Below are positions 1 to 50,512 of a DNA stretch of 64,000 nucleotides, piece after piece (the stretch's first letter is position 1; each line of letters starts with the position of its first letter). Source of the stretch: an uncultured Chromatiaceae bacterium (GTDB lineage Bacteria; Pseudomonadota; Gammaproteobacteria; Chromatiales; Chromatiaceae); contig CAZOWL010000006.1 in the NCBI GenBank assembly GCA_964583605.1, positions 14,976 to 78,975 of the forward strand. The letters are read 5' to 3'. The notes below the pieces were generated by a model. It saw only the letters and a program-made list of their open reading frames with translations, did no database searches and had not been told where the DNA came from. The position numbers and the translations under genes were made by a program.

Positions 1-70
1 TTGGTACGCCGGCTATGGCGGTCCGGCGGGCGATCCCAGAGGGGCTTGGCAACAAGGAGGTGCCCAAGGG

Positions 71-541
71 ATGGGCGGGCCTTACGGTCATCCGCAAACG
101 GCGGAGCCCTATGGGCCGGCTTACAGCCACGATTATTGGTCGGCGCATCCTGCGTCGATGGGGTACCCTGGCGGCGCGCCATGGGGTGCTTCGCCCGGGT
201 ACTACGGCAGTCCGTACCCCTATCCCTACTCGGCCTACCCGCATGGACCGCAGGGGCCTGGGCAGGCCGGCGCGCACGCCCGTCATGGCGCCGGTATGGC
301 GGACCTGATGGAGGAGATCGCGAAGGGCGGAAACGGCCTATCCAGTCTCTCCAAGATGCTAAGTCTCGACGACTCGGAGTTCTGGAAGGGGGCTCTGGTG
401 GGAGCCGCGGCGGTCCTGTTACTGACGAACGAGTCAGTGCAGGAGGTGCTCTTCAAGACGGGTGCCCGAGCGAAGCAGGCCGTAAAGGCCGGCATCGACA
501 AGGCCAAGGGGACCAGCAGCGAGGCGCCGACCGATGAGTGA
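71..541 (+). CDS. Small Pro/Gly/Tyr-rich membrane protein (paralog of 1228-1656), first visible gene of the fez-like cluster
   Basis: ATG preceded by AAGGAGG. The N-terminal ~75 aa are almost only P/G/Y/S/A/H (GYPGGAPWGASPGYYGSPYPYPYSAYPHGPQGPG). The C-terminal part has one hydrophobic helix with the motif FWKGALVGAAAVLLLTNESVQ, shared with the 1228-1656 product. Confidence 0.7.
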   Translation: MGGPYGHPQTAEPYGPAYSHDYWSAHPASMGYPGGAPWGASPGYYGSPYPYPYSAYPHGPQGPGQAGAHARHGAGMADLMEEIAKGGNGLSSLSKMLSLDDSEFWKGALVGAAAVLLLTNESVQEVLFKTGARAKQAVKAGIDKAKGTSSEAPTDE

Positions 542-923
542 CCGATACGAATACCCAGTGCCCCATCAAGCCCTGGTGGCCTATCCCGCCGTGCCGCCGG
601 CGCCCGGCTATGCGGTGGCCGACAATTCTTGCAGCACGTTGGTGCGCCTGGCCACCGTCGGTGCCATCGTCGGTGGCTCGGCTGCCGCCGCCTCGAACCT
701 GGCGCGGATGCAGCGCGCTGAGATCACCGTGAATCAAGTGCTGGCCGACACGACCAAGACGGCTGTTTCGAGCGCACTCGCGACCGCGGTGGCCGGCGCT
801 GTCGCCGGCGCCGTAGCCGAGCAGGGACTGGTGCGGCTCGGGGTGATGTTTGCCACCGGTGCGGCCGTACTCTATGCGCTCGAGCGGCGCTCGGTGCGCA
901 AGGAGGACGAGACGGGTGTCTGA
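534..923 (+). CDS. MamC-like small two-TM membrane protein
   Basis: The ATG overlaps the previous stop (ATGAGTGA). Two Ala/Gly-rich hydrophobic segments are separated by a polar loop. It is collinear with my recollection of magnetosome MamC/Mms13 (VGG-AA-A-N...IT...DT-K...LATA...GLV...LG...YA). Confidence 0.65.
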   Translation: MSDRYEYPVPHQALVAYPAVPPAPGYAVADNSCSTLVRLATVGAIVGGSAAAASNLARMQRAEITVNQVLADTTKTAVSSALATAVAGAVAGAVAEQGLVRLGVMFATGAAVLYALERRSVRKEDETGV

Positions 924-1113
924 TCACCGCCAACGCCAGCGTCACGGCGCAACCAAGAATCTCGCCGAGGGCATCGGCGGGGCGATCGTCGGGAGCGCCC
1001 TGGTCCTGCTTCTGCGGCAGCTGCTGCGGTCACGTGGGCAGAAGAGCGAGCCGAAGTCTGGACACCATGATGAGCCCTTGTCGAGCCCCCCGGCCGAGCA
1101 AGGACCCGCATGA
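916..1113 (+). CDS. Small single-TM protein (65 aa)
   Basis: In-frame GTG at 916 lies 9 nt after AGGAGGA (901-907) and overlaps the upstream stop (GTGTCTGA). One hydrophobic helix (GIGGAIVGSALVLLLRQLL) is followed by a charged tail. The track ORF 850-1113 is the same frame with an earlier, unsupported start. Confidence 0.5.
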   Translation: MSDHRQRQRHGATKNLAEGIGGAIVGSALVLLLRQLLRSRGQKSEPKSGHHDEPLSSPPAEQGPA

Positions 1114-1227
1114 AGGGCGGTTCCGGCATTGCCGTCGCGGCAGTCGGCCCGAACAGGCGCTGGCGCGCCGAGGAGGTCGCCCGGCGTATCGGCTTACCAT
1201 CTGACGCAACGCTACCAGGAGAGAACC

Positions 1228-1656
1228 TTGAGCAGTCATTACTTGCCGCACCCCTATTCTGGCTCCACGCCGTTTGATCCGAGGCCGATGGGCCAAGCTG
1301 GGTATGCCCCGGGTCACCCGAGTTACGGCTACCCCCAGCCGGGTGCGGGGTGGTATGGGGCGTCGCAGCCAGGACAGTATCCCGGCTATCATCAGTCGCA
1401 ATGGGCCTACCCCGCACGCGGGTCGGCCCCGTTCTTCAATTTTGCCAACGATCGCTTCGTCAAAGGGCTCTTGATCGGCGCCGCCGCGACCTACTTGGTG
1501 ACCAATGAGAGCGTCCAGCGTGCGCTGATCAAAGGGGTCGTGAAGACCTGGTCGATGCTGCAGGGCGGTGTCGAGGAGATCAGGGAGCGCTTCCACGACG
1601 CGGAAGCCGAGCTGCACCATGATTCCGGGCGCCGTGGTGCACCGAAGGATGACTAG
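1228..1656 (+). CDS. Small Pro/Gly/Tyr-rich membrane protein (paralog of 71-541)
   Basis: In-frame TTG at 1228 lies 5 nt after AGGAGAG. The N-terminus is P/G/Y-rich (GYAPGHPSYGYPQPGAGWYGASQPGQYPGY). It has the conserved helix FVKGLLIGAAATYLVTNESVQ. Confidence 0.65.
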   Translation: MSSHYLPHPYSGSTPFDPRPMGQAGYAPGHPSYGYPQPGAGWYGASQPGQYPGYHQSQWAYPARGSAPFFNFANDRFVKGLLIGAAATYLVTNESVQRALIKGVVKTWSMLQGGVEEIRERFHDAEAELHHDSGRRGAPKDD

Positions 1657-1793
1657 CCCGGGATAGACCGCCGGGCGGTGCGACGCCCAGCGGGGCGTCG
1701 GCGCGCCAAAGACGATCCTCTCTCCCGCGGTGCTCGGTCCTCTCTGGCGATGACTGAGCGCCCGCTGTCTAAATCCTGCGCGGAACGAGTCTC

Positions 1794-3914
1794 TTGTCGG
1801 TTCCCGGCTACCAGATTTTGCACGAGCTTCCCGGCCGCCTGCGGTTGCGGGTCCCAGCTCTTGGGCAACCCGGCTTCGCCGCATCGTCCGTTGAGGCTTG
1901 GTTCGATCACATCGCGGGTGTGGAAGGCGTGCGCGTCAACGGGCCAGCGCGCAGCCTGGTCGTCGACTACAGACCCGATCGGGTCTCGCGCGCCGAGCTC
2001 CTGCGCCGGCTCGAGGCCTACAAGCCGCCCGTAACGTCTGGCGCTGCGGCCCTCGACATCACGGATGCCGAGGTCACACCCTTGGCGCGCGCGATCCTGA
2101 CGCTGGTGATCTTGCCGTTCCTGCCGCGGCCGGCTCAGCATGTGGCGACGCTGATCAACATCGGCGGCACACTCCTCAAAGGGCTGGATACCCTGATCCA
2201 TCGCGGCATCAAGGTCGAGGTCCTCGATGCCGTGGCCGTGGGGCTATCGGCGGGCCGTGGCAAGCTCTACACCGCCAATGTCACGGATTTGCTGCTCACC
2301 ACGGGGACCTATCTGGAGCAGCGTACCGAGCGGCAGTCCGATCGCCTTTTGCGCCGCCTGCTGCGTCCCGAGCCGGTATCGGCCTGGGTCGAGCGCGATG
2401 GCGAGCTGGTGCAGGTGGCCGGCGACGCGGTCTGCGAAGGCGAGGTCGTGGTCGTCGGCGCCGGCGAGACGGTTCCGGTCGACGGGCGTGTCGTCGACGG
2501 CGTGGCGCTCGTCAACCAGGCCGCCGTCACGGGTGAGGATGTCCCCGTGGCCAAAGAGGCCCCGCGCCGCGTGATCTCAGGCTCGGTCCTCGTCGAGGGA
2601 CGGCTGCGGATCGAGGCGATTCAAGTCGGCGAGGAGACGACAACGGCGCGCGTGGCGCGCTTCATCCAAGAATCGCTGGCCAAGCAGTCAGCAACCCAGC
2701 GAACGGCCGACGAGCTGGCCGAGAAGCGCGTCTATGTCACGCTCGGCACGGGGGCATTGGTCTACGGCCTCACGCGGGATCTAACGCGCCTGCAGTCGGT
2801 CTTTCTCGTCGATTACTCGTGCGCATTGAAGCTTGGCACCCCCGTTGCATTTAAGGCGGGGCTGTATCAGGCCGCGCGCCACGGCATCCTGATCAAGGGT
2901 GGCGAGGCAATGGAGCACCTGGCAGGGGTCGATACGCTGATCTTCGACAAGACTGGCACCCTGACCCACAGCGAGCTGGCTGTCAGCGATGTGGTGCTGC
3001 TCGACGGGCAAGGCACCGAGTCGGAGGCAGATCTGCTGGCCTTGGTCGCCTCCGTCGAAGAGCACGCCAGCCACCCGGTGGCGCGCGCCGTGGTCGAGGC
3101 GGCCAAGGAGCGGGATCTCCAGCACATCTCCCACGGCGAGGTCGATTACCTCGTGGCCCATGGCCTCTCGGCCGAGATCCGGGCTGGGCGCATCGTCATC
3201 GGCAGCCGTCACTACCTCGAAGAGCATGCCGGCGTTCGGTTCGCCCGCTATGAGGGCGAGATCCGGCGGCTAGAGGAGGCCGGCAAGACACTTCTCTTCG
3301 TGGGCGACGAGCGCGGCCCGCTGGGGTTGATTGCATTGCGCGATACGCTCCGCGAGGAGGCGCCGGACACGCTGACTCGGCTGCGGTCGCTCGGCATCGA
3401 ACGATTGATCATGATCTCTGGGGATCGCCGCGAGAAGGCCGAGGCGCTGGGCGCCGAGCTCGGTTTCGATCGGGTCTTCGCCGAGATCGAGCCCGAGGGC
3501 AAGGCCGAGCTGATCCGGCGCTATCAGCAGGAAGGTCGCCGGGTGGGATTCGTTGGCGACGGCATCAACGATGGCCCCGCGCTAGTCGTCGCCGACGTCG
3601 GGATCGCGATGCCGCGTGGTGCCGATATCGCTCGCGCAACGGCCGATATCGTCCTGATGGATGATCGGCTCGGCGGGGTCGCCGACGCCCGCGAGGTCGC
3701 CGCCGGCACGATGGGCTTGATCCGCAACAACTTCAACCTGGCGGTCGGCGTCAACAGCGGGATCTTGGTTGGAGCCGTGCTCGGCTGGTTGTCGCCGGTC
3801 GCCAGTGCGCTGTTGCATAACGGCACGACGATCGGGATCCTACTCAATGCGCTGCGGGGCGTGCGCATCGGCGACGGCGCGGCCGCACCGACCGATGGCT
3901 TGTCCGAGAACTGA
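1794..3914 (+). CDS. Heavy-metal (P1B-type) P-type ATPase, P1B-6-like (FezB-like), with SCA transmembrane motif
   Basis: Motifs TGE (AAVTGEDVP), DKTGTLT and GDGINDGPAL are present. The TM metal-site motif is DYSCALKLGTP instead of CPC/SPC, and a late TM carries LHNGTT. The N-terminal ~75 aa look HMA-like (LPGRLRLRV...VEGVRVN) but contain no Cys. TTG start. Confidence 0.9.
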   Translation: MSVPGYQILHELPGRLRLRVPALGQPGFAASSVEAWFDHIAGVEGVRVNGPARSLVVDYRPDRVSRAELLRRLEAYKPPVTSGAAALDITDAEVTPLARAILTLVILPFLPRPAQHVATLINIGGTLLKGLDTLIHRGIKVEVLDAVAVGLSAGRGKLYTANVTDLLLTTGTYLEQRTERQSDRLLRRLLRPEPVSAWVERDGELVQVAGDAVCEGEVVVVGAGETVPVDGRVVDGVALVNQAAVTGEDVPVAKEAPRRVISGSVLVEGRLRIEAIQVGEETTTARVARFIQESLAKQSATQRTADELAEKRVYVTLGTGALVYGLTRDLTRLQSVFLVDYSCALKLGTPVAFKAGLYQAARHGILIKGGEAMEHLAGVDTLIFDKTGTLTHSELAVSDVVLLDGQGTESEADLLALVASVEEHASHPVARAVVEAAKERDLQHISHGEVDYLVAHGLSAEIRAGRIVIGSRHYLEEHAGVRFARYEGEIRRLEEAGKTLLFVGDERGPLGLIALRDTLREEAPDTLTRLRSLGIERLIMISGDRREKAEALGAELGFDRVFAEIEPEGKAELIRRYQQEGRRVGFVGDGINDGPALVVADVGIAMPRGADIARATADIVLMDDRLGGVADAREVAAGTMGLIRNNFNLAVGVNSGILVGAVLGWLSPVASALLHNGTTIGILLNALRGVRIGDGAAAPTDGLSEN

Positions 3915-6445: not shown

Positions 6446-7888
6446 TCAGGCCGGTTGCTCGAAGTGTCGTGACCATTGGCCGATCATGGCCCGGATGTGT
6501 GCTCCGTGTCTTTCGAGCAACGAGCCGGAGACGATGGTGGCGACACCGAGAAGGACGAGTGCGGTCCAGCCGCCGATCGTGAAGTCGGCCAGCGCGGCGT
6601 GGGCCATGACCCCGAGGCCGCTCAACGCGCCAATCAGGCCGACCGCGAAGACGCCGCGGCGCTTCGTGCCAAAACCGTAGGCCAGAATCAGCAGGCCGAC
6701 ACCCAGGCATACCAGGGCGTTGAAGAAGCCGCCCCAGAGCGACAGGTTGACGAGCATCGTCAGGCCGGCCGTCAACGCCGCAGCCCCCTCGTATCGACCC
6801 GAGCGCGCCCCGCTCTGGCGGGCCATATCCAGCAGGAGCAGCGTGAAGAGGCCCATCGCGAGCGGCAGGATCGCGACATCGGCCAACCCATCGAGCTCGG
6901 CTAGGGTCGCGAAGAGGAACAGCGTGCTCGATCCCGCGAGCAGCACAGCCATGGCCTCGAGCAGGCCTGACCGAGGCCTCTCTGGGCCGTGGTCGTGCGC
7001 GCTGAGCGCCAGCCTGGCCGCCAGGTAACCGACTAGCGACAGCGTCGCAAAGAACAGCGTGTCCGGGGCCCAGAGCCAGAGGCTGCGGCCGGCGATCACG
7101 AGGAGGGGGAGTGTCAGCACTGCACGGGCGAAGCGCCCCTCAGGCGTCGCCAGCGTCGCTTCGCCGCGACGCAGCCTCAGGATGCCCAACGCGAGCGCGC
7201 CGGCCAAGACCAGCAGCACGGCAGAGATGACCAGGTCATCCCGCGTTGGCAGCAGTAGCGCCGCATTGGCGAGCAGATAGAGCCCCGTCAGCGCGCCGGC
7301 CGATCGCCTGGCCATCACCAAAAACCCGATCCAGATCGCTCCGGCCAGGATCGCCGTCGCGGCGCCGGTCAGCATCAGCGCCGGGCCGAAGGCCAGAGTG
7401 TGGTCCAGGCTCGGTTGCCACAACGTGGCAGCGGCATCGAGCGTCCGCGGGGCATCCCAGGTCAGGTGCGGATAGGTCACGCCGCCGAGGAAGGCGAAGC
7501 TGACCGGCACCGCGGCCAGCGCCAGCGCTATGAAGAGTCGTGCACCCTTGGCCTCGCGCAGGACATGGCCGCTGGCGAAGCCCGCCATCGTCAGGACGAC
7601 CGTGTGGATGAGTAATAGAAGGCACCGCGTCAGGTCATCCCCGTCGCGCCAGCCCTGGAAGAGATACATGATGAAGGCCGCGACGATGACCAGGGCCCCG
7701 AGCCCATGGAGCAGGCGTGACAGCGTCAGGCCGTTAGGTCGATGCGCAGCCGATGCACTACTGCCCTCGGCCCCATCTTCACTGGGTGGTCGAGACGGCT
7801 CTCCCGGAAGACCGCGCGGCCAGTCCGCGTCGAGATCGAGCTTCAGTTCCAGTTCGCGGACATCGGCGGGTATCGCGTTAGTGCTCAT
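6446..7888 (-). CDS. Polytopic inner-membrane protein of unknown function (~11-12 TM helices)
   Basis: 480 aa with a charged N-terminus followed by a continuous series of hydrophobic helices. Its start overlaps the stop of the PspA-like gene by 11 nt. Confidence 0.75.
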   Translation of the reverse strand: MSTNAIPADVRELELKLDLDADWPRGLPGEPSRPPSEDGAEGSSASAAHRPNGLTLSRLLHGLGALVIVAAFIMYLFQGWRDGDDLTRCLLLLIHTVVLTMAGFASGHVLREAKGARLFIALALAAVPVSFAFLGGVTYPHLTWDAPRTLDAAATLWQPSLDHTLAFGPALMLTGAATAILAGAIWIGFLVMARRSAGALTGLYLLANAALLLPTRDDLVISAVLLVLAGALALGILRLRRGEATLATPEGRFARAVLTLPLLVIAGRSLWLWAPDTLFFATLSLVGYLAARLALSAHDHGPERPRSGLLEAMAVLLAGSSTLFLFATLAELDGLADVAILPLAMGLFTLLLLDMARQSGARSGRYEGAAALTAGLTMLVNLSLWGGFFNALVCLGVGLLILAYGFGTKRRGVFAVGLIGALSGLGVMAHAALADFTIGGWTALVLLGVATIVSGSLLERHGAHIRAMIGQWSRHFEQPA

Positions 7889-8555
7889 CGCAACCTCCTC
7901 CTGCCTGGCCCGGGGCCTGCTGTGCGCGGGCCTTGAGGGCCGCTAGCTCAGCGGACAGCCCGGCTCGTTCCTCATCGGCGACGAATGCGGACTCGAACGG
8001 GTCGCGCTGCGGTGTCGAGTCGCCGTCGAGCTCTGCCTCGACGACGTGCATCTCCCAGCGCTCGAAGGTCTCGTCCAGGTCTGGCTCGACGCCGGCGGCT
8101 GCGACGCGTACCTGGGCGGCCGCCTCCGCCGTCGCCTCGCGGCTGCGCAGCATGTGTCGGCGGTGCTCGAGTGTCAGAAGGCGTTGACGCAACGACTCAA
8201 CCTCGCGTGCCAGCTGCGTCTCGGTCTCGACGTGGTGACGCAGCGTCGCCTTGAGCGACTGCGCCTGCTCGCCTGCCTGCTTGTGCCGTCGTAGGCACTC
8301 CAGCGCCGTATCCTCCTGCGCGCTGTTGACGGCCCTGTCGCGCCACGCCGAGGACGCGGCGTCCAGCTCGGCGATCCGCGAGCGCAGCCGCTCGCCGTGC
8401 TGTCGCAATCGCATCAGTCGGACGCTGGCCCTAGCGTAGGCGCGGCGTCTCTCGCGGATGCCTGCCTCGACGACCGCATCATGGTTCTCGAGCTCTCCGA
8501 CCAACCTGTCGACCCGGGCCGACAGTGACGTCGTAATACGTTTCAGAAATGCCAC
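7878..8555 (-). CDS. PspA/IM30-family protein
   Basis: Coiled-coil protein collinear with PspA (AFLKRITTSLSARVDRLVGELENHDAVVEAGIRE ... FERWEMHVVEAELD). GTG start at 8555 lies 5 nt after AGGAGGAG; the track ATG at 8600 has no RBS. Confidence 0.8.
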   Translation of the reverse strand: MAFLKRITTSLSARVDRLVGELENHDAVVEAGIRERRRAYARASVRLMRLRQHGERLRSRIAELDAASSAWRDRAVNSAQEDTALECLRRHKQAGEQAQSLKATLRHHVETETQLAREVESLRQRLLTLEHRRHMLRSREATAEAAAQVRVAAAGVEPDLDETFERWEMHVVEAELDGDSTPQRDPFESAFVADEERAGLSAELAALKARAQQAPGQAGGGCDEH

Positions 8556-8595
8556 CGAATGCTCCTCCTGCTTCAGAGTTTGGCATCCCATCAAC

Positions 8596-8611
8596 ATCAA
8601 AGCTCATGCCA
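8596..8611 (-). promoter_or_regulatory. Candidate sigma-54 promoter upstream of the PspA-like gene
   Basis: The minus strand reads TGGCATGAGCTTTGAT. The -24 GG is at the right place, but the -12 element is TTGA rather than TTGC. It lies ~40 nt upstream of the GTG start. Confidence 0.3.
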
Positions 8612-8824: not shown

Positions 8825-9292
8825 ATGCCGGAGCCCGCCCTGCGCGAGCTGGCGTCAAGGATGCTCGCGGAGCTCCAGGACAAGAGTCTGGACCAGTTCC
8901 GGCGGCTGGCCGAGGGACTGCCAGTGATCGCTTGGGCGGCGCGACGCAACGGGACGCGCGAGCTCTTCAATCACCATTACGCCGACTTCCTCGGGCTGGA
9001 CCCAGGCCAGGCCACGGGACGTGAAGGGGCATGCCGCCCCTTCATCCATCGCGACGATGTCGGATTTTATCTCACGCTCTTCAAGCTCTCGATCCGCCGG
9101 AAGAGGCCCTTTAAGGCCGAGTTTCGCGGACTGAGGACTGACGGTCGGTGGCGATGGATCAAGAGCGCTGGGCCCCCTTGTTGGGGATCAGACGGCGAGT
9201 ATCTGGGCCATGTTGGCGCCTCGCTCGATGTCACCGAGCGCGAGGAGCCCGTCCGTGAGCCAACTTGCTTCGAAGCGATTATGCCGCGTTGA
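8825..9292 (+). CDS. Stand-alone PAS-domain protein
   Basis: PAS/PAC-like pattern: LPVIAWAARRNGTRELFNHHYADFLGLDP...FIHRDDV...EFRGLRTDGRWRWIKSAGPP...GEYLGHVGASLDVTERE. Confidence 0.7.
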   Translation: MPEPALRELASRMLAELQDKSLDQFRRLAEGLPVIAWAARRNGTRELFNHHYADFLGLDPGQATGREGACRPFIHRDDVGFYLTLFKLSIRRKRPFKAEFRGLRTDGRWRWIKSAGPPCWGSDGEYLGHVGASLDVTEREEPVREPTCFEAIMPR

Positions 9293-9602
9293 CCTTTGAG
9301 CCCCCGCGACACGGCGGAGAGTCGGGCAACGCCTCTCCCCGAGCCTGCCACTCGTCGGGCGTCCAGGCGTGGATCGCCAGGGCATGCAGTCCGTGCTGGA
9401 GCTCGCTGCCGAGTAGACCGTGAACCAGACGGTGACGGGCGATGAGTGGCTGGTCGCCGAACGCGGAGCTAACGATCAAGACCTTGAAATGCGACTCGGC
9501 CCCCGCCGGCACATTGTGGCGTGAGCTCTCATCGATCACATGGAGGTGCGTCGGAGACAGTCTGGAAGCCAGGGTCTCTTCGATGCGTGTCTTACGGCTC
9601 AT
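9279..9602 (-). CDS. bolA: BolA-family protein
   Basis: Near-collinear with E. coli BolA: HLHVIDESSRHNVPAGAESHFKVLIVSSAFGDQPLIARHRLVHGLL...LHALAIHAWTPDEW...SPPCRGG. Confidence 0.9.
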   Translation of the reverse strand: MSRKTRIEETLASRLSPTHLHVIDESSRHNVPAGAESHFKVLIVSSAFGDQPLIARHRLVHGLLGSELQHGLHALAIHAWTPDEWQARGEALPDSPPCRGGSKVNAA

Positions 9603-15935: not shown

Positions 15936-16050
15936 CGTCTCATCACACAATCTGTCGTTGATCAACCGAACGATCTTGCGAGCGCCCATGAAACCGATAG
16001 TCTGGTCCATAATGCCGCGATCACCCACCTCATTTCCATCGGCCAATCCA

Positions 16051-17202
16051 GTGACGCCCTTCTCTCACCGCCGCTACGTCGTAACGACCGCTATGGTCGC
16101 CGTCCTACCCGCATTGATGCTGGTGTCCGTCTCGTGCGCCACGGCCATCGAGACCAAGACCCCAGTTGTCGAGACTGCCGCCTTGCCCGACCTCGATGAG
16201 GTGATCGAGCGTTTACGCGATCGGCGCGTCATCTATGTCGGGGAGAGCCACGATCGCTACGAAGATCACCTCAATCAGCTGAGAGTGCTCGAGGGCCTGC
16301 ATGCGCAGGGCCAGGACTTGGCGATCGGTATGGAGTTCTTTCAGCAGCCCTTCCAGCCCTTTCTCGATGCCTATGTGGCCGGCGATATCTCTGAGGAAGA
16401 GATGCTGCGCCAGACCGAGTATTTCACGCGCTGGCGGTTCGATTATCGCCTCTATCGGCCCATCCTGCGCTTCGCGCGCAAGTATCGCGTTCCGCTGATC
16501 GCCCTCAATCTCGAGAGCGAGCTGATCGAGAAGGTCGGTGAGCTCGGTATCGATGGCTTGAGCCCCGCCGAGCGTGCCCGCCTGCCGGCGGATATCGATC
16601 GCGATGACCCGGAGTATCGCGCCCGGTTGCGCAAGGCGTTCGAGGCCCATCCGATGCTCGAGCGCAGCACCTTCGAGCATTTCCTCGACGTGCAGCTCGT
16701 GTGGGACGAGGGCATGGCTGAGCGTGCGGCGCGCTATCTCAAGGCGCACCCCTCGAAGACCCTGGTCGTGCTCGCCGGCGCCGGTCACCTCGAGTACGGC
16801 CAAGGCATTCCCCGGCGGTTGCAGCAGCGCATGCCGGTGAGCTCGGCGATCCTGCTCAACGGGCGAGGCCGCGTGCCGGCGACCGATGTGGCCGATTTTC
16901 TTCTCTATCCCCAGCCGGCCGATCTGCCGCCGGGCGGCCTGCTCGGCGTGCAGATCGACAACGAGGCCGAAGGGGGCGGTGTGCTGGTCATCGGCTTCGC
17001 CGAGACCAGCGGGGCCAAGGAGGCCGGCATCGAGAAGCAGGATCGGATCGTCCGCATCGGCGCGACTGCGGTGACGGAGTATAGCGATGTGCGCATCGCG
17101 CTGATCGATCAGTCACCTGGGGTCAGGATACCCGTGCAGGTCGTCCGCGATCGGCTACTCGGGCAGAGCGAGCGGCTGACATTCGAGGTGGAGCTGCACT
17201 AA
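16051..17202 (+). CDS. ChaN-family (haem-binding, DUF399-like) lipoprotein with C-terminal PDZ domain
   Basis: VIYVGESHDRYEDHLNQLRVLEGL...LAIGMEFF...RWRFDYRLYRPILRFARKYRVPLIALN matches ChaN. C-terminal GVQIDNEAEGGGVLVIGFAETSGAKEAGIEKQDRIVRIG looks like PDZ. Lipobox-like LMLVSVSC. The start is uncertain (GTG 16051 or upstream ATGs from 15958). Confidence 0.7.
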   Translation: MTPFSHRRYVVTTAMVAVLPALMLVSVSCATAIETKTPVVETAALPDLDEVIERLRDRRVIYVGESHDRYEDHLNQLRVLEGLHAQGQDLAIGMEFFQQPFQPFLDAYVAGDISEEEMLRQTEYFTRWRFDYRLYRPILRFARKYRVPLIALNLESELIEKVGELGIDGLSPAERARLPADIDRDDPEYRARLRKAFEAHPMLERSTFEHFLDVQLVWDEGMAERAARYLKAHPSKTLVVLAGAGHLEYGQGIPRRLQQRMPVSSAILLNGRGRVPATDVADFLLYPQPADLPPGGLLGVQIDNEAEGGGVLVIGFAETSGAKEAGIEKQDRIVRIGATAVTEYSDVRIALIDQSPGVRIPVQVVRDRLLGQSERLTFEVELH

Positions 17203-30250: not shown

Positions 30251-30370
30251 CGATCATGGGGCAAGCCGAGCCACCCCGGACGATGAAATGGCGCCTCGCC
30301 CCTGATTGTTCCCTCACCCCAACCCTCTCCCAGAGGGCGAGGGAGCGAGCGTGCTGCGCGGGTTTCATTG
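30247..30370 (+). repeat. MITE-like repeat, full copy, between ispE and tRNA-Gln
   Basis: CTAACGATCATGGGGCAAGCCGA...GCGCCTCGCCCCTGATTGTTCCCTCACCCCAACCCTCTCCCAGAGGGCGAGGGAGCGAGCGTGCTGCGCGGGTTTCAT. Its CTAAC end contains the ispE TAA stop. Confidence 0.9.
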
Positions 30371-30373
30371 TAA

Positions 30374-30448
30374 TGGGGCGTCGCCAAGCGGTAAGGCACT
30401 GGGTTTTGATCCCAGCATTCCCAGGTTCGAATCCTGGCGCCCCAGCCA
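30374..30448 (+). tRNA. tRNA-Gln (anticodon TTG)
   Basis: TGGGGCGTCGCCAAGCGGTAAGGCACTGGGTTTTGATCCCAGCATTCCCAGGTTCGAATCCTGGCGCCCCAGCCA. Acceptor stem TGGGGCG/CGCCCCA, anticodon loop TTTTGAT, encoded CCA. Nearly identical in layout to E. coli tRNA-Gln. Confidence 0.95.
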
Positions 30449-30590
30449 TCTTCGGGCATCGCCGAACTGCGTCGCCGCGAGCCCTATCCGCCAGGTCCGA
30501 GCGTCTGTCGCGCCGCGCTCCATGCTGGAGAGGGAAGGTGCCGGCGCTCTGCGCAGCAATCTGAGGTCTAGCGCCGTGGCCACCAGCCAG

Positions 30591-31529
30591 ATGATGGTGT
30601 TCACCGGGAACGCCAACCCGGATCTCGCCGCCGAGATCGCCGGTCACCTGAGCTTGCCGCTCGGGAAGGCCGTTGTTGGGCAGTTCAGCGACGGCGAGGT
30701 GATGACGGAGATCCAAGAGAACGTCCGTGGGCGCGACGTCTTCGTCGTCCAGCCGACCTGCGCTCCGACCAATGATAACCTGATGGAGTTGTTGGTCATG
30801 ATCGATGCCCTGCGTTGGGCGTCGGCCAAGCGCGTGACCGCGGTGATCCCTTACTTCGGCTATGCCCGGCAGGACCGACGGCCACGCTCGGCGCGCGTGC
30901 CGATCACGGCCAGGTTGGTGGCCAAGGCGATCGGGAATGCCGGGGCCGACCGAGTGCTCACCGTCGACCTGCACGCCGACCAGATTCAGGGCTTCTTCGA
31001 TATCCCGGTCGACAACGTCTATGCCTCGCCGATCCTGCTCGGCGACGTCTGGCGCCAGAAATATCCGCGCTTGATCGTCGTCTCGCCCGATGTCGGTGGC
31101 GTGGTGCGCGCGCGTGCCCTGGCCAAACGGCTCGATGATGCCGATCTGGCGATCATCGACAAGCGGCGGCCTCGTGCCAACGAGGCCAAGATCATGAACA
31201 TCATCGGTGATGTCGAAGGGCGCTCGTGCGTGCTCGTCGACGACCTTGTCGACACCGCGGGCACCCTGTGTCGAGCCGCGGCGGCACTCAAGGAGCGCGG
31301 TGCGGCAATGGTCGTTGCCTACTGCACGCACGCCGTGCTCTCCGGTCCGGCCGTCGAGAATATCAGCGCGTCCGAAATGGATGAGCTGGTGGTGACGAAC
31401 ACGATTCCACTGCGACCCGACGCGCTCGCTTGCGGGCGGATCCGCCAATTGAGTATCGGTGAGTTGTTGGGGGAGACGATACGGCGTGTCTCGAGTGACG
31501 AGTCGGTCAGCTCACTCTTCGTCGATTAG
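30591..31529 (+). CDS. prs: Ribose-phosphate pyrophosphokinase
   Basis: [50 protein letters not shown] and [13 protein letters not shown]. The track ORF start at 30306 is MITE/tRNA sequence. Confidence 0.95.
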
Positions 31530-41140: not shown

Positions 41141-41214
41141 GGCTGAGTGGCAGAGTGGTTATGCAGCGGCCTGCAAAGCCGTGTACCTCGGTTCGATTCC
41201 GGGCTCAGCCTCCA
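41141..41214 (+). tRNA. tRNA-Cys (anticodon GCA)
   Basis: GGCTGAGTGGCAGAGTGGTTATGCAGCGGCCTGCAAAGCCGTGTACCTCGGTTCGATTCCGGGCTCAGCCTCCA. Acceptor stem GGCTGAG/CTCAGCC, anticodon loop CTGCAAA, encoded CCA. Confidence 0.95.
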
Positions 41215-49300: not shown

Positions 49301-49897
49301 CTCGGCGGCATGCTCGCCTTAGCCGTGCTGGACATCGCGCTGGAGTGCCGGCGCTTCATCGACCAGCTTTCGCGTGCCTCGGTCGCCGAGGAGCCGGCGC
49401 GTTGGCCGAGCCAGGTTGCCGCCGGCTTCCAGGCTAACCTGCACCTGGACCCCGCCCGGCTATCGCCTTGGATCGCGCTCAGCGTGATCTCCGAGCACGC
49501 GGACCTGGTCATGCGCCTGGTAGTCTATCCGCTGATCGTGCTCGTGGTCCTGGTGGTCGCCCGGCTGCCCTGGCTCGACACCACCAGCCTGCCGCCGAGC
49601 ATCCTCATCGTCTACCTGGTCTTCGCCTTCTACATCTTTTTCGTCGCCGTCGGCATCCAACGCGCGGCGAACGGGGCCAAGGCCCGAACCCGCGAGCACT
49701 ACCAGACCCTGCTTGACGGCAACCGGAACGCCCCAGTCGAGGATCCCAAGACCAACACCCAGCTTGAATGTCTGATCCGCCAGGTCTCCGAGCTGCACGA
49801 CGGTGCCTTCAAGCCGCTGCCGGCACGGCCGCTCGTGCGCATGGCGCTGCTGCCGTTCGGGGCGCTTGGGGTGGGGCTGTTGGAGTTGTTCGGCTAA
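46391..49897 (+). CDS. Orphan 1168-aa polytopic membrane protein of unknown function
   Basis: Uninterrupted ORF with native-like G+C. One N-terminal TM (IPGMVVAATLLGVVFF) is followed by a ~650-aa soluble region with alternating strand/helix blocks (RILAVMLPG, VDVAVLGPSSSDG, HVVLVSEWDTAYGRS, AAVGILGSDIHDKLLILQAL, AVFFTTDLDARL). At least 7 further TM helices and a conserved-looking tail (GAFKPLPARPLVRMALLPFGALGVG) follow. I recognise no family motif. Confidence 0.75.
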   Translation: MSDRDDGLGLSIPGMVVAATLLGVVFFKSVPLETTRPAPEAQLPDASVTAERAPARLWEDPFNAVYRHMPNTTDRPEAPDTGGDPPANPDFCSTDTVGARAERVDPHEASAPPCIADQIAHRNQLGRKPRILAVMLPGATSVESGENRIRRRYAVLSALHIAGFVPDDATHIGWFRTIPGSDLPAVIPYEWMTATDGAADPGSVLVLWLDDTPFRQRLHRGLTGLVAGILPKDQLPADGKVDVAVLGPSSSDGLVGLLREAAAIAAPTVASGAQMPAYDAGMAGMIGLAGTGTIGATPVWPDRAFEIRLDVYSATATAADDELFDRAGIEGDGRTVADYLFCRLNLDLHRTIADDRVLVEILAAELGARFDRSSGPLLGLAIGLRKATSAVREATVDRLRGTIPPVGSGKGGKHVVLVSEWDTAYGRSLPISLCKALEAELGKTTPCAHVDQRGAGYPAGESESQGGADLPWVHRFTYMRGLDGTLGATGGHAGDHSLADALAESAQGTPQLDYLRRLAGRLVSLERGLPSGHSIAAVGILGSDIHDKLLILQALRPAFQGAVFFTTDLDARLYEPAQLQWTRGLVVATGFGLQLEGATGAAPTGIDCQDSIPPFRSGYQTAFFYAAREALGALPEACRLGTEPGYRQVEAAGQAPAPARLFEIGRTGPVALIPPRPAGDDQGADPASSAPGARALGKQDTGQARLNAWLDVLLLLVMGWGLFLVFYHRHVPLWWGALGQRLRRSPLGTSLGLILALLALGGLLAWLWRDLEVLACPLALDATACAEPFSVTSGISIWAPVYLQLLAVVLSALFIARVLVRFRANMLGLSSRYFLGRGCGIERRPAPAGLWAASHAELRHWAQVGLRWLRRPGWDRADSLADQVSARADTAADTGHPSEPLDTDDALRLWLQYCRRSRFWWRVLRVVALSILLFAVVVALYWATGGGGNSPVRDAELARIFLELRLLGVLLGGMLALAVLDIALECRRFIDQLSRASVAEEPARWPSQVAAGFQANLHLDPARLSPWIALSVISEHADLVMRLVVYPLIVLVVLVVARLPWLDTTSLPPSILIVYLVFAFYIFFVAVGIQRAANGAKARTREHYQTLLDGNRNAPVEDPKTNTQLECLIRQVSELHDGAFKPLPARPLVRMALLPFGALGVGLLELFG

Positions 49898-50138: not shown

Positions 50139-50512
50139 AGTAGGTGCCGCCGCCACTGGAGACGCTGTTTGATCGCGTGGCCAACGCATGGCGTCAGTGC
50201 AAAATGACACAGAGCGCCGCATATATCTTCGTCACACGTGGATTTGCCGTCGCGATGCATGCCCCTCGCGCCCGATCGCTGTGTTGCGCCTCCTCTCCAT
50301 GGGGCCCGCTACGCCTCGTCGGCACGCCTGGCGCTCGGGCCCGATTGGCGCACCGCGCCTGCCGCAAGAGCCATGCGCGACGGGCATAGCTTTCGAGTAA
50401 CATCTCGGTCGCGGCCGGTTGACGAAGAGCAGCTCGGGTACGCCAGTGGTCTGTCGGCCATTATTGCGTAGCGTCAACGGGCCTCAACGACCATCTTGTG
50501 GAGACCCCACCC

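What the first reader, a model, noticed from the sequence alone, without database searches (positions are those of the whole stretch)
1..3914. Ferrosome-type (fez-like) cluster: four small membrane proteins translationally coupled ahead of an SCA-motif P1B ATPase
Five same-strand genes sit at the window edge: 71-541, 534-923, 916-1113, 1228-1656 and a 706-aa P-type ATPase at 1794-3914.

- The 534 start overlaps the previous stop (ATGAGTGA).
- The GTG at 916 lies after AGGAGGA and overlaps the previous stop.
- The ATPase has normal catalytic motifs (TGE, DKTGTLT, GDGINDGPAL). Its metal-site TM motif, however, reads DYSCALKLGTP (SCA, not CPC/SPC/TPC), and a late TM carries HNGTT.
- Its N-terminal HMA-like domain has no Cys at all.

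As far as I recall, the SCA motif defines the P1B-6 subgroup. That subgroup includes FezB, the signature protein of the ferrosome (membrane-bounded iron-granule) operons described in 2022 in Desulfovibrio magneticus, Rhodopseudomonas palustris and Shewanella putrefaciens. Those operons combine the ATPase with several small hydrophobic proteins, and six genes were reported for the latter two species. Five are visible here and the cluster may continue upstream of position 1. This would be a lipid-bounded organelle locus rather than a metal-efflux pump.
Basis: partly seen in the sequence, partly recalled or inferred. Interest (0 to 1): 0.75.

Follow-up and report, generated by a model that had tools for sequence, protein, structure and literature searches.

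The report
Ferrosome (fez) iron-storage gene cluster
The window's left edge carries most of a ferrosome (fez) gene cluster from a purple sulfur bacterium: an iron-pumping P1B-6 ATPase plus small membrane proteins. This cluster type was already catalogued in sister genera in 2020, so it is a correct but largely expected find.

Summary

Corrections:
- Gene 1 is cut by the window edge. The full gene is 261 aa and starts 245 nt upstream.
- Only two of the four junctions overlap.
- g1 and g4 are only weakly hydrophobic.

- The ATPase has DYSCALK, HNGTT and an N-terminal GRLRLRVP motif, the published FezB/P1B-6 signatures.
- It clusters with SCA-type pumps (NJ bootstrap 0.98), apart from CPC-type Cu and Zn pumps.
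- It is 71% and 65% identical to Thivi_1332 and Thimo_2900, which Grant & Komeili list as FezB.
- Their tables also list the orthologues of g1, g2 and g4 as Fez-cluster groups 2-3, 4-5 and 2-1.
- The gene order g1-g2-(g3)-g4-fezB recurs in six gammaproteobacterial loci and, without a detectable g3, in two Desulfobacterota.

An identical public contig shows what lies upstream of the window: an arginine-rich HMA_2 protein and a true Fur gene.

One extra finding: g2 is a homologue of the magnetosome protein MamC (hhalign 98.4%). I found no paper that reports this.

Verdict: a new member of a known kind. No experiment exists for this cluster architecture.

The parts
1..541 (+). g1: the 3' 180 codons of a 261-aa gene whose start lies 245 nt upstream of the window. 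It has a Pro/Gly/Tyr/Gln-rich low-complexity N-terminal part. Its conserved C-terminal segment is FWKGALVGAAAVLLLTNESVQ (nt 380-442), which contains GxxxG. It corresponds to Fez-cluster group 2-3 of Grant & Komeili.
   Evidence: The frame is open to position 2. The full ORF is L005 7603-8388. Orthologues Thimo_2895 and Thivi_1336 are listed with the motif xFWKGALVGAAAVL. tblastn finds it in eight loci, and an ORF carrying the same motif precedes the MamC-like gene in L086. It is a paralogue of g4 (E 2e-11).
534..923 (+). g2: a 129-aa MamC-like membrane protein with two hydrophobic regions (nt 639-704 and 762-881). It corresponds to Fez-cluster group 4-5. Group 4 also holds the two-TM protein of the Shewanella and Rhodopseudomonas operons.
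   Evidence: It hits NCBIfam MamC NF038051 at E 1.4e-12 and 47.8 bits, below the 100-bit cutoff. All 31 homologues carry PF26373. hhalign against true MamC gives 98.4% probability and E 4e-15. The AF2 model has three helices with mean pLDDT 68. Orthologues Thimo_2896, Thivi_1335 and Alvin_1680 are listed as group 4-5.
916..1113 (+). g3: a 65-aa single-pass membrane protein. It has a basic N-terminus, RQRQRHG (nt 928-948), and a GxxxG transmembrane helix, LAEGIGGAIVGSALVLLLRQLL (nt 961-1026). It starts with GTG 8 nt after AGGAGGA, and the start overlaps the g2 stop.
   Evidence: The first ~40 residues are conserved in five other genomes at 48-82% identity, and the start overlaps or closely follows the g2 stop. 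It is called as a gene in T. violascens and T. mobilis. Kyte-Doolittle score is 1.76. It was not found in the stored (truncated) text of the 2020 supplement and is not called on the Logan contig.
1228..1656 (+). g4: a 142-aa protein with a Pro/Gly/Tyr-rich N-terminal half. Its conserved segment is RFVKGLLIGAAATYLVTNESVQ (nt 1453-1518), followed by a helix-prone charged tail. It corresponds to Fez-cluster group 2-1, the subgroup of RPA2334 and Sputcn32_3194. It starts with TTG after AGGAGA.
   Evidence: Alignment A1 has 25 invariant columns, 23 of them in the C-terminal half. P0153 is Thimo_2898 and P0155 is the T. violascens orthologue. The supplement lists group 2-1. Some orthologues are named 'YtxH domain-containing' by UniRef or NCBI, but the local Pfam scan gave no hit.
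1794..3914 (+). g5: fezB, a 706-aa P1B-6-type P-type ATPase. Its parts are an N-terminal HMA_2-like domain (aa 7-75) with the R-rich strand GRLRLRVP (nt 1833-1856), TGE (nt 2529-2537), DYSCALK (nt 2811-2831), DKTGTLT (nt 2946-2966), GDGINDGPAL (nt 3555-3584) and HNGTT (nt 3816-3830).
   Evidence: Pfam hits are E1-E2_ATPase, Hydrolase and HMA_2, and it hits TIGR01525 at 485 bits. It lies in the SCA clade with bootstrap 0.98. It is 71% and 65% identical to the listed FezB homologues. The AF2 model has pLDDT 78 and pTM 0.70.

Best explanation
This is the main operon of a ferrosome (fez) gene cluster in a purple sulfur bacterium. The organism belongs to the Chromatiaceae and its nearest sequenced relative is Thiococcus pfennigii.

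**Proposed mechanism, carried over from the characterised systems**
- When the cell has to manage iron under anoxic conditions, Fur repression is relieved and the operon is expressed.
- The small proteins insert into a patch of cytoplasmic membrane and help to shape or stabilise a vesicle of about 20 nm. These are the Gly/Ala-rich GxxxG proteins g1, g3 and g4, and the MamC-like hairpin protein g2.
- FezB sits in that vesicle membrane. It uses ATP to pump Fe(II) from the cytoplasm into the lumen.
- In the lumen the iron precipitates with phosphate as a disordered ferrous phosphate store. This store is shielded from cytosolic redox chemistry.
- The arginine-rich strand on the HMA_2-like N-terminal domain of FezB probably mediates assembly, targeting or iron hand-off. 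It is unlikely to bind metal through cysteines, because it has none. The separate HMA_2 protein encoded upstream carries the same kind of strand.

**Shown here**
- Gene content, sequence motifs and phylogenetic placement.
- Conserved gene order across distant lineages.
- A Fur gene next to the operon.
- Homology of g2 to MamC.

**Inferred**
- Iron as the substrate.
- Vesicle rather than plasma-membrane location.
- The roles assigned to the individual small proteins.
- Regulation by Fur.
For: 1. **FezB signatures.** DYSCALK, HNGTT, GRLRLRVP and a Cys-free N-terminal domain are all present. The defining criteria come from bioRxiv 10.1101/2020.01.10.902569.
2. **Phylogeny.** In an NJ tree of 31 P1B ATPases the SCA/ACA clade containing the window protein has bootstrap 0.98. 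It is sister to the R-rich DFxTGIR pumps and separate from the CPC/DVGV (ZntA-like) and CPC/MSLSS (CopA-like) pumps.
3. **Orthologues catalogued in the ferrosome paper.** The listed orthologues are Thimo_2900 and Thivi_1332 (FezB), Thimo_2895 and Thivi_1336 (group 2-3), Thimo_2896 and Thivi_1335 (group 4-5), and Thimo_2898 and Thivi_1333 (group 2-1). Thimo_2901 (group 3-10) is 32% identical to the upstream HMA_2 protein, E 4e-20. The Thimo_2900 cluster was one of that paper's seed 'conserved fez gene clusters'.
4. **Link to validated operons.** Subgroup 2-1 also contains RPA2334 and Sputcn32_3194. These belong to operons shown by deletion and by heterologous expression to make ferrosomes.
5. 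**Conserved gene order.** The order recurs in T. pfennigii, T. violascens, Thioflavicoccus mobilis, Halochromatium salexigens, two MAGs, a Desulfosarcina MAG and Desulfobotulus pelophilus. In Desulfobotulus, FeoA-domain and TonB-receptor genes follow the cluster.
6. **Iron link at this locus.**
   - An equivalog-level Fur gene (172 bits against a cutoff of 146) lies 360 nt upstream of g1.
   - A 13/19 Fur-box-like site lies 96 nt upstream of the g1 ATG.
   - Similar 13/19 sites occur upstream of the cluster in 5 of 6 gammaproteobacterial loci. Each is matched by only 1-5% of windows in its own locus.
   - In C. difficile, loss of Fur causes fezB-dependent over-accumulation of ferrosome iron (PMC13307979).
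7. **Lifestyle.** The organism is an anaerobic phototroph. This matches the anaerobic distribution reported for fez clusters.
Against: - **No experiment on this architecture.** Validated operons are D. magneticus fezABC and the six-gene Shewanella and Rhodopseudomonas operons. C. difficile fezB has also been tested by deletion. I found no paper that mentions ferrosomes together with purple sulfur bacteria.
- **Substrate unproven.** No FezB has had its substrate shown biochemically in the papers I could read, and no P1B-6 structure is solved.
- **No direct comparison with model Fez proteins.** I could not obtain their sequences. The link rests on the published grouping and on motif strings.
- **R-rich partner differs.** The window operon lacks FezC- and FezD-type genes. 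The only R-rich partner found is the group 3-10 protein upstream.
- **Topology.** The AF2 model shows eight membrane-domain helices laid out as in CopA. This disagrees with the six-TM topology reported for P1B-6.
- **Fur-box evidence is weak.** Six 13/19 sites occur in 72 kb, and an AT-rich consensus favours intergenic DNA.
Confidence: 0.75

Rival explanations
1. This is an ordinary cytoplasmic-membrane metal efflux or detoxification pump. It would export Fe(II) or another divalent metal to the periplasm. The small genes would be accessory membrane subunits or chaperones, and no organelle would be involved.
For: - The catalytic core is a standard P1B ATPase. It scores 485 bits to TIGR01525.
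- The closest solved relatives are the exporters CopA, sCoaT and ZntA.
- The model has the usual eight-helix layout.
- A Fur-linked iron exporter is biologically plausible.
- Location in a vesicle has not been shown for this protein.
Against: - The protein lies in the clade whose members are required for ferrosome formation in the species tested by deletion, including C. difficile fezB.
- It lacks the CPC/SPC and Cys- or His-rich metal sites of the known exporters.
- The accessory genes are the ones catalogued in fez clusters and are conserved across phyla.
- Fur normally represses uptake and storage-related genes that are needed when iron is low, not efflux pumps. This point rests on general knowledge.
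Confidence: 0.14
2. The cluster builds a ferrosome-like compartment, or drives a metallation pathway, for a metal other than iron such as Mn or Zn. This would resemble the related R-rich pump CtpC of mycobacteria.
For: - R-rich P1B ATPases with other TM motifs are the sister group (DFxTGIR/NNGSx). Grant & Komeili note that CtpC is related.
- One metagenomic contig pairs such a pump (DYGTGIR) with a MamC-family protein, a His-rich HMA_2 protein and a Gly/Ala-rich small protein.
- A 2026 review lists compartments for other metals as an open question (PMC13463818).
Against: - The window pump has the exact DYSCALK/HNGTT residues of the iron-associated FezB clade, not those of the sister group.
- A Fur gene, not Zur or MntR, lies next to it.
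- Related clusters are flanked by FeoA, a TonB-dependent receptor and an ABC transporter whose binding protein hits SBP_bac_1/6/8/11 families.
Confidence: 0.07
3. The locus is a remnant or relative of a magnetosome gene cluster, given the MamC-like g2. Alternatively, the Gly/Tyr/Pro-rich small proteins are sulfur-globule envelope proteins of a purple sulfur bacterium.
For: - g2 is a true homologue of MamC.
- g1 and g4 have Gly/Tyr/Pro-rich low-complexity regions. These superficially recall structural envelope proteins, and Chromatiaceae do make sulfur globules (a resemblance recalled from general knowledge).
Against: - Family scans of 29 further ORFs spread across the window, and of five genes on the upstream contig, found no Mam family. 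These ORFs are mostly housekeeping genes.
- g2 scores 48 bits against a 100-bit MamC cutoff.
- MamC-family proteins also occur alone, outside both fez and mam clusters.
- The g1 and g4 families travel with fezB in Desulfosarcina and Desulfobotulus, which (from general knowledge) do not store sulfur globules.
- No N-terminal hydrophobic segment of the signal-peptide type appears in g1 or g4.
Confidence: 0.02

Closest known systems
The Thioflavicoccus mobilis (Thimo_2894-2901) and Thiocystis violascens (Thivi_1332-1336) fez gene clusters, catalogued in Grant & Komeili 2020 (bioRxiv 10.1101/2020.01.10.902569; published as Grant et al. 2022, Nature 606:160)
   Same: - The gene order is the same: group 2-3 protein, MamC-like group 4-5 protein, a small TM protein, group 2-1 protein, then FezB.
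- FezB is 65-71% identical and has the same DYSCALK and HNGTT motifs, with a near-identical R-rich motif.
- The upstream group 3-10 R-rich protein is shared with T. mobilis.
   Different: - R-rich genes are placed differently. T. mobilis has a FezD-like gene directly upstream of g1 and two HMA_2 genes downstream of fezB.
- Here the only R-rich partner is upstream, and a Fur gene separates it from the operon.
- T. violascens has neither arrangement. It has a divergent ABC transporter instead.
- None of these clusters has been tested experimentally.
The Shewanella putrefaciens CN-32 (Sputcn32_3193-3198) and Rhodopseudomonas palustris CGA009 (RPA2333-2338) six-gene fez operons
   Same: - FezB has the same TM motifs.
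- A group 2-1 GxxxG protein lies next to fezB, corresponding to g4.
- A 'Group 4' protein described as having two TM domains corresponds by group to g2.
- These operons are necessary for ferrosome formation. The Shewanella operon is also sufficient in E. coli.
   Different: - The model operons carry FezC (group 3-2) and FezD (group 3-1) R-rich proteins and a group 2-5 GxxxG protein. None of these is in the window.
- The window has a group 2-3 protein with a long Pro/Gly/Tyr-rich region and the 65-aa g3 instead.
- Sequences could not be compared directly here.
The Desulfovibrio magneticus fezABC cluster, and C. difficile fezB
   Same: Both pair a P1B-6 ATPase with at least one small hydrophobic GxxxG protein. 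Both are linked to iron starvation or to Fur.
   Different: - The D. magneticus cluster is smaller, with three genes.
- FezA belongs to group 2-4.
- No MamC-like gene is reported for it.
MamC (Mms13), a magnetosome membrane protein (NCBIfam NF038051, Pfam PF26373)
   Same: g2 shares the two Gly/Ala-rich hydrophobic helices and the helical connecting loop. hhalign gives 98.4% probability over 82 columns with 38% identity.
   Different: - g2 scores well below the equivalog cutoff (48 against 100 bits).
- It lies in a fez cluster, not a mam cluster.
- The family also has stand-alone members.
CopA, ZntA and sCoaT (P1B-1, P1B-2 and P1B-4 exporters with solved structures)
   Same: The A, P and N domains and the overall predicted fold are shared. 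TM-score is 0.74 to A. fulgidus CopA 7R0G.
   Different: - Identity is about 30%.
- The TM4 motif is SCA, not CPC or SPC.
- TM6 carries HNGTT.
- The N-terminal domain lacks Cys and carries an arginine-rich strand.

Membership tests
FezB / P1B-6 ATPase (Smith et al. 2014; Grant & Komeili 2020) | [quoted passage not shown] | tested here: met
   DYSCALK lies at aa 340-346 (nt 2811-2831) and aligns with the same motif in seven relatives. The criterion is quoted.
FezB / P1B-6 ATPase | HNxxT motif in the last transmembrane helix | tested here: met
   HNGTT lies at aa 675-679. H675, N676, G677 and T679 are invariant in 30 homologues.
FezB / P1B-6 ATPase | An N-terminal R-rich motif (RxR or RxRxR), with no CxxC or His-rich metal-binding domain | tested here: met
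   GRLRLRVP lies at aa 14-21. R15, R17 and R19 are conserved in at least 90% of 30 homologues. Residues 1-90 contain no Cys and only two His. The paper notes that this motif is not exclusive to FezB.
FezB / P1B-6 ATPase | Phylogenetic placement in the FezB clade, apart from the P1B-1, P1B-2 and P1B-4 pumps | tested here: met
   The NJ tree gives bootstrap 0.98 for the SCA/ACA clade. Outgroups were classified by motif only, and no curated P1B-1 to P1B-7 reference set was available. The protein is 65-71% identical to proteins that sit in the published FezB clade.
FezB / P1B-6 ATPase | The unusual six-helix transmembrane topology reported from TOPCONS predictions | tested here: inconclusive
   The AF2 model (pLDDT 78) has eight helices in the membrane region. 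It superposes on almost the whole of CopA 7R0G, which has eight TM helices. Hydropathy alone finds fewer. No TM predictor was available.
FezB / P1B-6 ATPase | Transports Fe(II) into a cytoplasmic vesicle | not testable with these tools
   This needs localisation and transport assays.
fez (ferrosome) gene cluster | fezB clustered with one or more small hydrophobic proteins that carry a GxxxG (or Gxxx[A/S]) motif | tested here: met
   The motifs are g1 KGALVGAAA, g3 GGAIVG and g4 KGLLIGAAA. Orthologues are listed in the paper's GxxxG tables as groups 2-3 and 2-1.
fez (ferrosome) gene cluster | Cluster-encoded proteins with an N-terminal R-rich (HMA_2) motif, such as FezC or FezD; described as present in many clusters, not all | tested here: met
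   None occurs inside the window apart from FezB itself. A 223-aa HMA_2 protein with HQIPGRMRWHVP lies 1.5 kb upstream of the window on the identical contig L005. It is homologous to Thimo_2901, group 3-10. It is not FezC- or FezD-type.
fez (ferrosome) gene cluster | Gene neighbourhood conserved around fezB in related genomes | tested here: met
   The g1-g2-(g3)-g4-fezB order recurs in 8 of 8 further loci examined with a FezB of at least 41% identity. It is absent from a Lachnospiraceae FezB locus at 34% identity.
fez (ferrosome) gene cluster | Direct sequence homology of the small proteins to Fez proteins of D. magneticus, S. putrefaciens and R. palustris | not tested
   The model-organism sequences could not be retrieved with the available searches. 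Only the published grouping and the motif strings were compared.
fez (ferrosome) gene cluster | Necessary and/or sufficient for membrane-bounded Fe/P granules | not testable with these tools
   This needs genetics combined with TEM or cryo-ET.
MamC (magnetosome protein), NCBIfam NF038051 equivalog | A score at or above the curated 100-bit cutoff, plus location in a magnetosome gene cluster | tested here: not met
   g2 scores 47.8 bits, and no mam genes lie nearby. It is homologous but is not a MamC equivalog. It should be called MamC-like.

The most novel reading that the evidence does not exclude
One widespread fez cluster architecture, found in Chromatiaceae, other Gammaproteobacteria and Desulfobacterota, is built around three things. 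These are a MamC homologue and two paralogous proteins that join a Pro/Gly/Tyr-rich disordered region to a GxxxG anchor.

- If these are true ferrosome membrane proteins, ferrosomes and magnetosomes share a membrane-protein module. That sharing could come from common descent or from recruitment.
- The disordered regions could act as a luminal or cytoplasmic scaffold for nucleating amorphous iron phosphate.
- It would also mean that purple sulfur bacteria make ferrosomes alongside their photosynthetic membranes and sulfur globules. These bacteria are key players in ferruginous and euxinic water columns.

In the papers I could search, none links MamC to fez clusters or links ferrosomes to purple sulfur bacteria.
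Probability: 0.35. Interest if true: 0.55.

Novelty: new member of a known kind. Interest (0 to 1): 0.35.

Why it matters
**Value for annotation**
[quoted passage not shown] This work gives them a specific, testable role.
- The locus turns out to be a seven-gene unit linked to Fur.

**Biological interest**
- Purple sulfur bacteria live at sulfidic, iron-poor chemoclines, where a protected Fe(II) store would be useful. Ferrosomes have not been looked for in them.

**MamC homology**
- It is a modest new lead on how bacteria build iron-mineralising vesicles.
- It is also a caution for annotation. NCBI already labels some proteins of g2's family in Desulfobotulus as 'magnetosome protein MamC'. In D. 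pelophilus a member of the same 90%-identity cluster sits in a fez cluster.

**Limit**
- The main claim adds another member to a family described in 2020-2022 and does not open a new question.

Tried and rejected
1. **Retrieving model-organism Fez proteins.** I wanted sequences from S. putrefaciens, R. palustris and D. magneticus for a direct comparison.
   - The genome-collection scan used generic peptide patterns and returned mostly CPC-type pumps. Those pumps were useful only as outgroups.
   - The profile search with the g4 family returned 575 hits, but only the 120 closest were listed, and none of those that carry an organism name comes from a model species.
   - The Nature 2022 and Nature 2023 papers are not held.
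2. **Local Pfam scan for MamC.** The local copy has no model that matches the PF26373-annotated orthologues. I used the NCBIfam MamC model and hhalign instead.
3. **Fur box.** A single-locus scan is not significant, with six 13/19 hits in 72 kb. Comparing orthologous promoters gives moderate support only. The sigma-70 scan found nothing upstream of g1.
4. **YtxH assignment of g1 and g4.** Some database names suggest it, but there is no Pfam hit at E 0.1 or better. I left it as a resemblance.
5. **Six-TM topology.** The structure model does not reproduce it.
6. **MamC-like proteins as a universal marker of fez or mam clusters.** Rejected, because stand-alone members exist.
7. **RNA elements in the intergenic gaps.** No Rfam family matched in the cluster.
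8. **Magnetosome-remnant and sulfur-globule-protein readings.** Both were rejected; see the rival explanations.
9. **The downstream PspA/IM30 gene as part of the cluster.** It is not in the gene lists of the three related loci with called genes, so I treat it as coincidental.

Full report
**1. What is in the sequence**

The ORF listing and direct reading confirm five same-strand ORFs at the left edge of the window.

| Gene | Coordinates | Size |
|---|---|---|
| g1 | ending at 541 | see below |
| g2 | 534-923 | 129 aa |
| g3 | 916-1113 | 65 aa, GTG start |
| g4 | 1228-1656 | 142 aa, TTG start |
| g5 | 1794-3914 | 706 aa, TTG start |

ATGAGTGA lies at 534-541. AGGAGGA lies at 901-907, followed by a GTG at 916 that overlaps the TGA at 921-923.
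- The other two junctions are gaps of 114 and 137 nt, so translational coupling applies to only half of the junctions.
- Third-position GC of 0.74-0.82, with second-position GC of 0.46-0.58, marks these frames as the coding ones. The long antisense ORFs typical of a 66% GC genome do not show this pattern.
- NCBI-source proteins identical to g2, g4 and g5 exist (P0121, P0152, P0001).
- The ATPase motifs are all present at the coordinates given.
- The protein has only two cysteines, C214 and the Cys of the SCA motif (C343). Residues 1-90 contain none.

**2. The window cuts the cluster**

- The g1 frame is open back to position 2.
- A public Logan contig (L005, SRR7048221_115824, 9,677 bp) is 100% identical to window 1-1830. 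Window position 1 equals L005 position 7848.
- On that contig g1 begins at an ATG 245 nt upstream of the window, preceded by GGGAGG, and encodes 261 aa. This agrees with orthologues of 250-284 aa.
- Further upstream lies a 360-nt intergenic region.
- Next comes a 143-aa gene that passes NCBI's equivalog cutoff for the ferric uptake regulator Fur (172 bits against 146).
- Next comes a 223-aa protein with an HMA_2 domain and the arginine-rich motif HQIPGRMRWHVP.
The unit is seven genes: HMA_2 protein, fur, then g1, g2, g3, g4 and fezB.
- No other arginine-rich HMA_2 ORF occurs in the 64-kb window.

**3. The ATPase**

- Pfam finds E1-E2_ATPase, the HAD hydrolase domain and a weak HMA_2 match. NCBIfam places it in TIGR01525, the heavy-metal P1B family, at 485 bits.
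- Grant & Komeili define FezB/P1B-6 by D[Y/F]SCA and HNxxT in the metal-binding helices. They also note an N-terminal RxR/RxRxR motif in place of a Cys or His metal-binding domain (bioRxiv 10.1101/2020.01.10.902569).
- The window protein has DYSCALK, HNGTT and GRLRLRVP. The arginines are conserved in at least 90% of 30 homologues.
- I extracted 88 P1B ATPases from fetched loci and read their motifs in a common alignment.
- In an NJ tree of 31 of them, the window protein sits in a clade of SCA/ACA + HNxxT pumps with bootstrap 0.98.
- That clade is sister to R-rich DFxTGIR/NNGSx pumps (bootstrap 0.94). It is well separated from the CPC/DVGV (ZntA-like) and CPC/MSLSS (CopA-like) pumps, to which the window protein is about 30% identical.
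- No P1B-6 structure is solved. The closest PDB sequences are CopA, sCoaT and ZntA, and they match only from about residue 140-163 onward.
- An AlphaFold model (pLDDT 78, pTM 0.70) gives a beta-beta-alpha-beta-beta-alpha N-terminal domain at residues 7-75. The R-rich motif forms the second strand of a hairpin in that domain.
- The model has eight membrane-region helices. It superposes on almost the whole of A. fulgidus CopA 7R0G with TM-score 0.74.
- The published six-helix topology is therefore not reproduced by the model. I leave that feature open.

**4. It is already catalogued**

- The best named relatives are Chromatiaceae: Thiococcus pfennigii at 80% identity, Thiocystis violascens at 71% and Thioflavicoccus mobilis at 65%.
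- The supplement of the ferrosome paper lists Thivi_1332, Thimo_2900, Thidr_2751, Marpu_0948 and a Thiocapsa roseopersicina protein as FezB homologues. All carry HNGTT and DYSCALK (DYACALK in Marpu_0948), and Thimo_2900 and the Thiocapsa protein carry HELPxRLRLRxP.
- The Thimo_2900 neighbourhood was one of the seed 'conserved fez gene clusters' in that paper.

The accessory genes are catalogued too:

| Window gene | Listed orthologues | Paper's group | Notes |
|---|---|---|---|
| g1 | Thimo_2895, Thivi_1336 | 2-3 | GxxxG motif xFWKGALVGAAAVL |
| g4 | Thimo_2898, Thivi_1333 | 2-1 | Same subgroup as RPA2334 and Sputcn32_3194 |
| g2 | Thimo_2896, Thivi_1335, Alvin_1680 | 4-5 | Group 4 also holds Sputcn32_3195 and RPA2335 |
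| upstream HMA_2 | Thimo_2901 (32% identity, E 4e-20) | 3-10 | Arginine-rich |

- RPA2334 and Sputcn32_3194 sit next to fezB in the two six-gene operons shown by deletion to be required for ferrosome formation. The Shewanella operon is also sufficient in E. coli.
- By elimination, Sputcn32_3195 and RPA2335 are the 'two-TM' protein FezF. This is my inference from the figure legend.
- My searches recovered Thimo_2898 itself as a top hit of the g4 profile.
- g3 was not found in the stored, truncated supplement.

**5. Conservation of the small genes**

- tblastn with the window proteins finds g1, g2, g3, g4 and fezB in the same order in T. pfennigii, T. violascens, T. mobilis, Halochromatium salexigens and a Pseudomonadota MAG. 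A Chromatiaceae MAG shows the same order but g3 was not detected there.
- Halochromatium carries two MamC-like copies.
- A Desulfosarcina MAG also has g1, g2, g4 and fezB in this order, with FezB only 41% identical.
- Desulfobotulus pelophilus has a g1-like gene, a MamC-like gene, a g4-like gene, an 80-aa TM protein and FezB (DYSCAIK/HNAST). A FeoA-domain protein and a TonB-dependent receptor follow.
- A Lachnospiraceae FezB at 34% identity lacks these genes.
- g3 is a real gene. Its first ~40 residues (QRQRHGVTKNLVEGVGGVIVGAALVLLLR) are conserved in five other genomes, and its start overlaps or closely follows the g2 stop.
- g1 and g4 are paralogues (E 2e-11). Both have a variable Pro/Gly/Tyr/Gln-rich region followed by xF-x-KG-x-L-x-GAAA-xx-L-x-TNESVQ and a helix-prone tail.
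- Hydropathy shows a clear TM helix in g3 and two or three hydrophobic helices in g2. g1 and g4 have only a short, weak hydrophobic segment. 'Membrane protein' is therefore secure for g2 and g3 and provisional for g1 and g4.

**6. The MamC link**

- g2 hits NCBI's MamC model at E 1.4e-12, scoring 48 bits against a cutoff of 100.
- All 31 of its database homologues carry Pfam PF26373 (MamC).
- A profile of these 31 was searched against 1.84 billion representative proteins. It found only 203 proteins at E 0.001 or better.
- Of the top 149, 139 match the MamC model.
- Six proteins that pass the MamC equivalog cutoff (117-135 bits) were among the profile's hits, at whole-library E-values of 7e-7 to 2e-5.
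- Profile-profile comparison of the fez-linked family with those six gives 98.4% probability, E 4e-15, over 82 columns.
- The AF2 model of g2 is helical throughout its conserved part, with low to moderate confidence.
- So g2 is a MamC homologue but not a MamC equivalog.
- The family is not confined to fez or mam clusters. Two members looked up stand alone. One high-scoring member sits beside an R-rich DYGTGIR pump.
- No paper in the searchable library connects MamC with fez clusters.

**7. Regulation**

- The Fur gene is adjacent to the operon.
- A Fur-box-like site (13 of 19 matches to GATAATGATAATCATTATC) lies 96 nt upstream of the g1 ATG. Five other 13/19 sites occur in the 72 kb examined.
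- Sites of 13/19 occur within 300 nt upstream of the first cluster gene in five of six gammaproteobacterial loci. Each is reached by only 1-5% of same-size windows in its own locus. The T. pfennigii and window sites resemble each other.
- This is suggestive, not proof, because an AT-rich consensus favours intergenic DNA.
- In C. difficile a fur mutant accumulates about four times the iron of a fur fezB double mutant, held as a vivianite-like ferrous phosphate (PMC13307979).
- No Rfam family and no convincing sigma-70 or terminator site lies in the cluster.

**8. Surroundings**

- Downstream of fezB, on the opposite strand, are a cupin, an OprB-family porin, a 480-aa membrane protein and a PspA/IM30-family gene.
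- Then come PAS, BolA, ankyrin, DUF1820 and M1 peptidase genes, a ChaN-type haem-binding protein, an isochorismatase and an RND efflux pair.
- The scanned ORFs further downstream are mostly housekeeping genes: prfA, hemA, prs, mfd, purL and others.
- None of these neighbours appears next to fezB in the three related genomes with called genes, so the functional unit ends at 3914.

**9. Mechanism and rivals**

- The best-supported reading is a ferrosome cluster (confidence 0.75). FezB loads Fe(II) into a small lipid vesicle. The GxxxG and MamC-like proteins build or stabilise its membrane. The iron is stored as amorphous ferrous phosphate, under Fur control.
- Homology to the fez family is close to certain. 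Actual organelle formation by this untested architecture is an inference.
- The main rival is a plain cytoplasmic-membrane exporter (0.14).
- A compartment for another metal (0.07) and the magnetosome-remnant or sulfur-globule readings (0.02) are unlikely.

**10. Novelty**

- The kind of system is known from 2020-2022 work. The same architecture in sister genera is in that work's supplementary tables.
- This locus is a new member of a known kind.
- New here are the Fur-containing upstream extension at this locus, the conserved 65-aa g3, the cross-phylum conservation of the g1-MamC-like-g4-fezB module, and the demonstration that the group 4-5 protein is a MamC homologue.

Noticed in passing
window 6446-8600 (- strand): A PspA/IM30-family gene (7878-8600) overlaps by 11 nt a 480-aa multi-pass membrane protein with a weak DUF2157 hit (6446-7888). 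The pair lies 2.5-4.7 kb downstream of fezB. PspA/IM30 proteins remodel membranes, which is interesting next to an organelle cluster. The pair is not in the gene lists of the T. pfennigii, T. violascens or T. mobilis loci.
   Followed up: partly
L088 1-3341 (JGI metagenome contig Ga0672872_0041821): A protein that passes the NCBIfam MamC equivalog cutoff (117 bits) sits beside three other genes. These are an R-rich P1B ATPase with a DYGTGIR motif (the sister group of FezB), a His-rich HMA_2 protein ending in HHHHHHHY, and a Gly/Ala-rich small protein. This may be a ferrosome-like cluster for another pump type.
   Followed up: partly
L086 704-1042 (Desulfobotulus pelophilus) and cluster members P0426 and P0427: NCBI names the Desulfobotulus proteins of g2's family 'magnetosome protein MamC'. 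In D. pelophilus the gene lies inside a fez cluster with FezB, FeoA and a TonB-dependent receptor. This looks like a misleading annotation transfer.
   Followed up: yes
L009 1705-3927 (Desulfosarcina MAG): A second R-rich P1B ATPase with ACPCATI/HITHT motifs lies about 1 kb upstream of the g1-like gene, which heads the g1-MamC-like-g4-fezB module. It matches the 'FezH' type described by Grant & Komeili.
   Followed up: no
L006 4069-4443 and 4719-5108 (Halochromatium salexigens): This fez cluster carries two MamC-like paralogues in tandem, with the g3 orthologue between them.
   Followed up: no
window 1110-1277 (+) and 916-1113 (+): The gene caller used for the Logan contig called a 55-aa ORF at 1110-1277 and missed g3 (916-1113). 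The 55-aa ORF has no detected conservation and a lower GC3 (0.66). Small fez genes are easily mis-annotated.
   Followed up: yes
L005 3134-5695 (- strand), upstream of the window: An 853-aa protein with no NCBIfam match (and no precomputed Pfam hit on the contig) is transcribed divergently from the HMA_2-fur pair. An alkaline-phosphatase-family gene (1085-2914) lies beyond it. Phosphate metabolism next to an iron-phosphate storage cluster may or may not be meaningful.
   Followed up: no
window 15958-17202 (+) and 9279-9602 (-): A ChaN-type haem-binding/PDZ protein and a BolA-like protein lie within 15 kb of the cluster. Both families are linked to iron or Fe-S metabolism. They are not adjacent to fezB in related genomes.
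   Followed up: no
window 46391-49897 (+): A 1,168-aa ORF with a coding-like GC3 of 0.83 has no Pfam match at E 1e-5 or better.
   Followed up: no
window 50474-51271 (-) and 50498-51295 (+): Two mirror-image 265-aa ORFs on opposite strands both show coding-like third-position GC (0.74 and 0.81). Which strand is coding was not resolved.
   Followed up: no
window 30374-30448 and 41141-41214 (+): tRNA-Gln(ttg) and tRNA-Cys(gca) are the only Rfam or ARAGORN hits in the window. The tRNA-Gln lies inside the 5' end of the mechanically listed prs ORF (30306-31529), so the real prs start must be downstream.
   Followed up: partly
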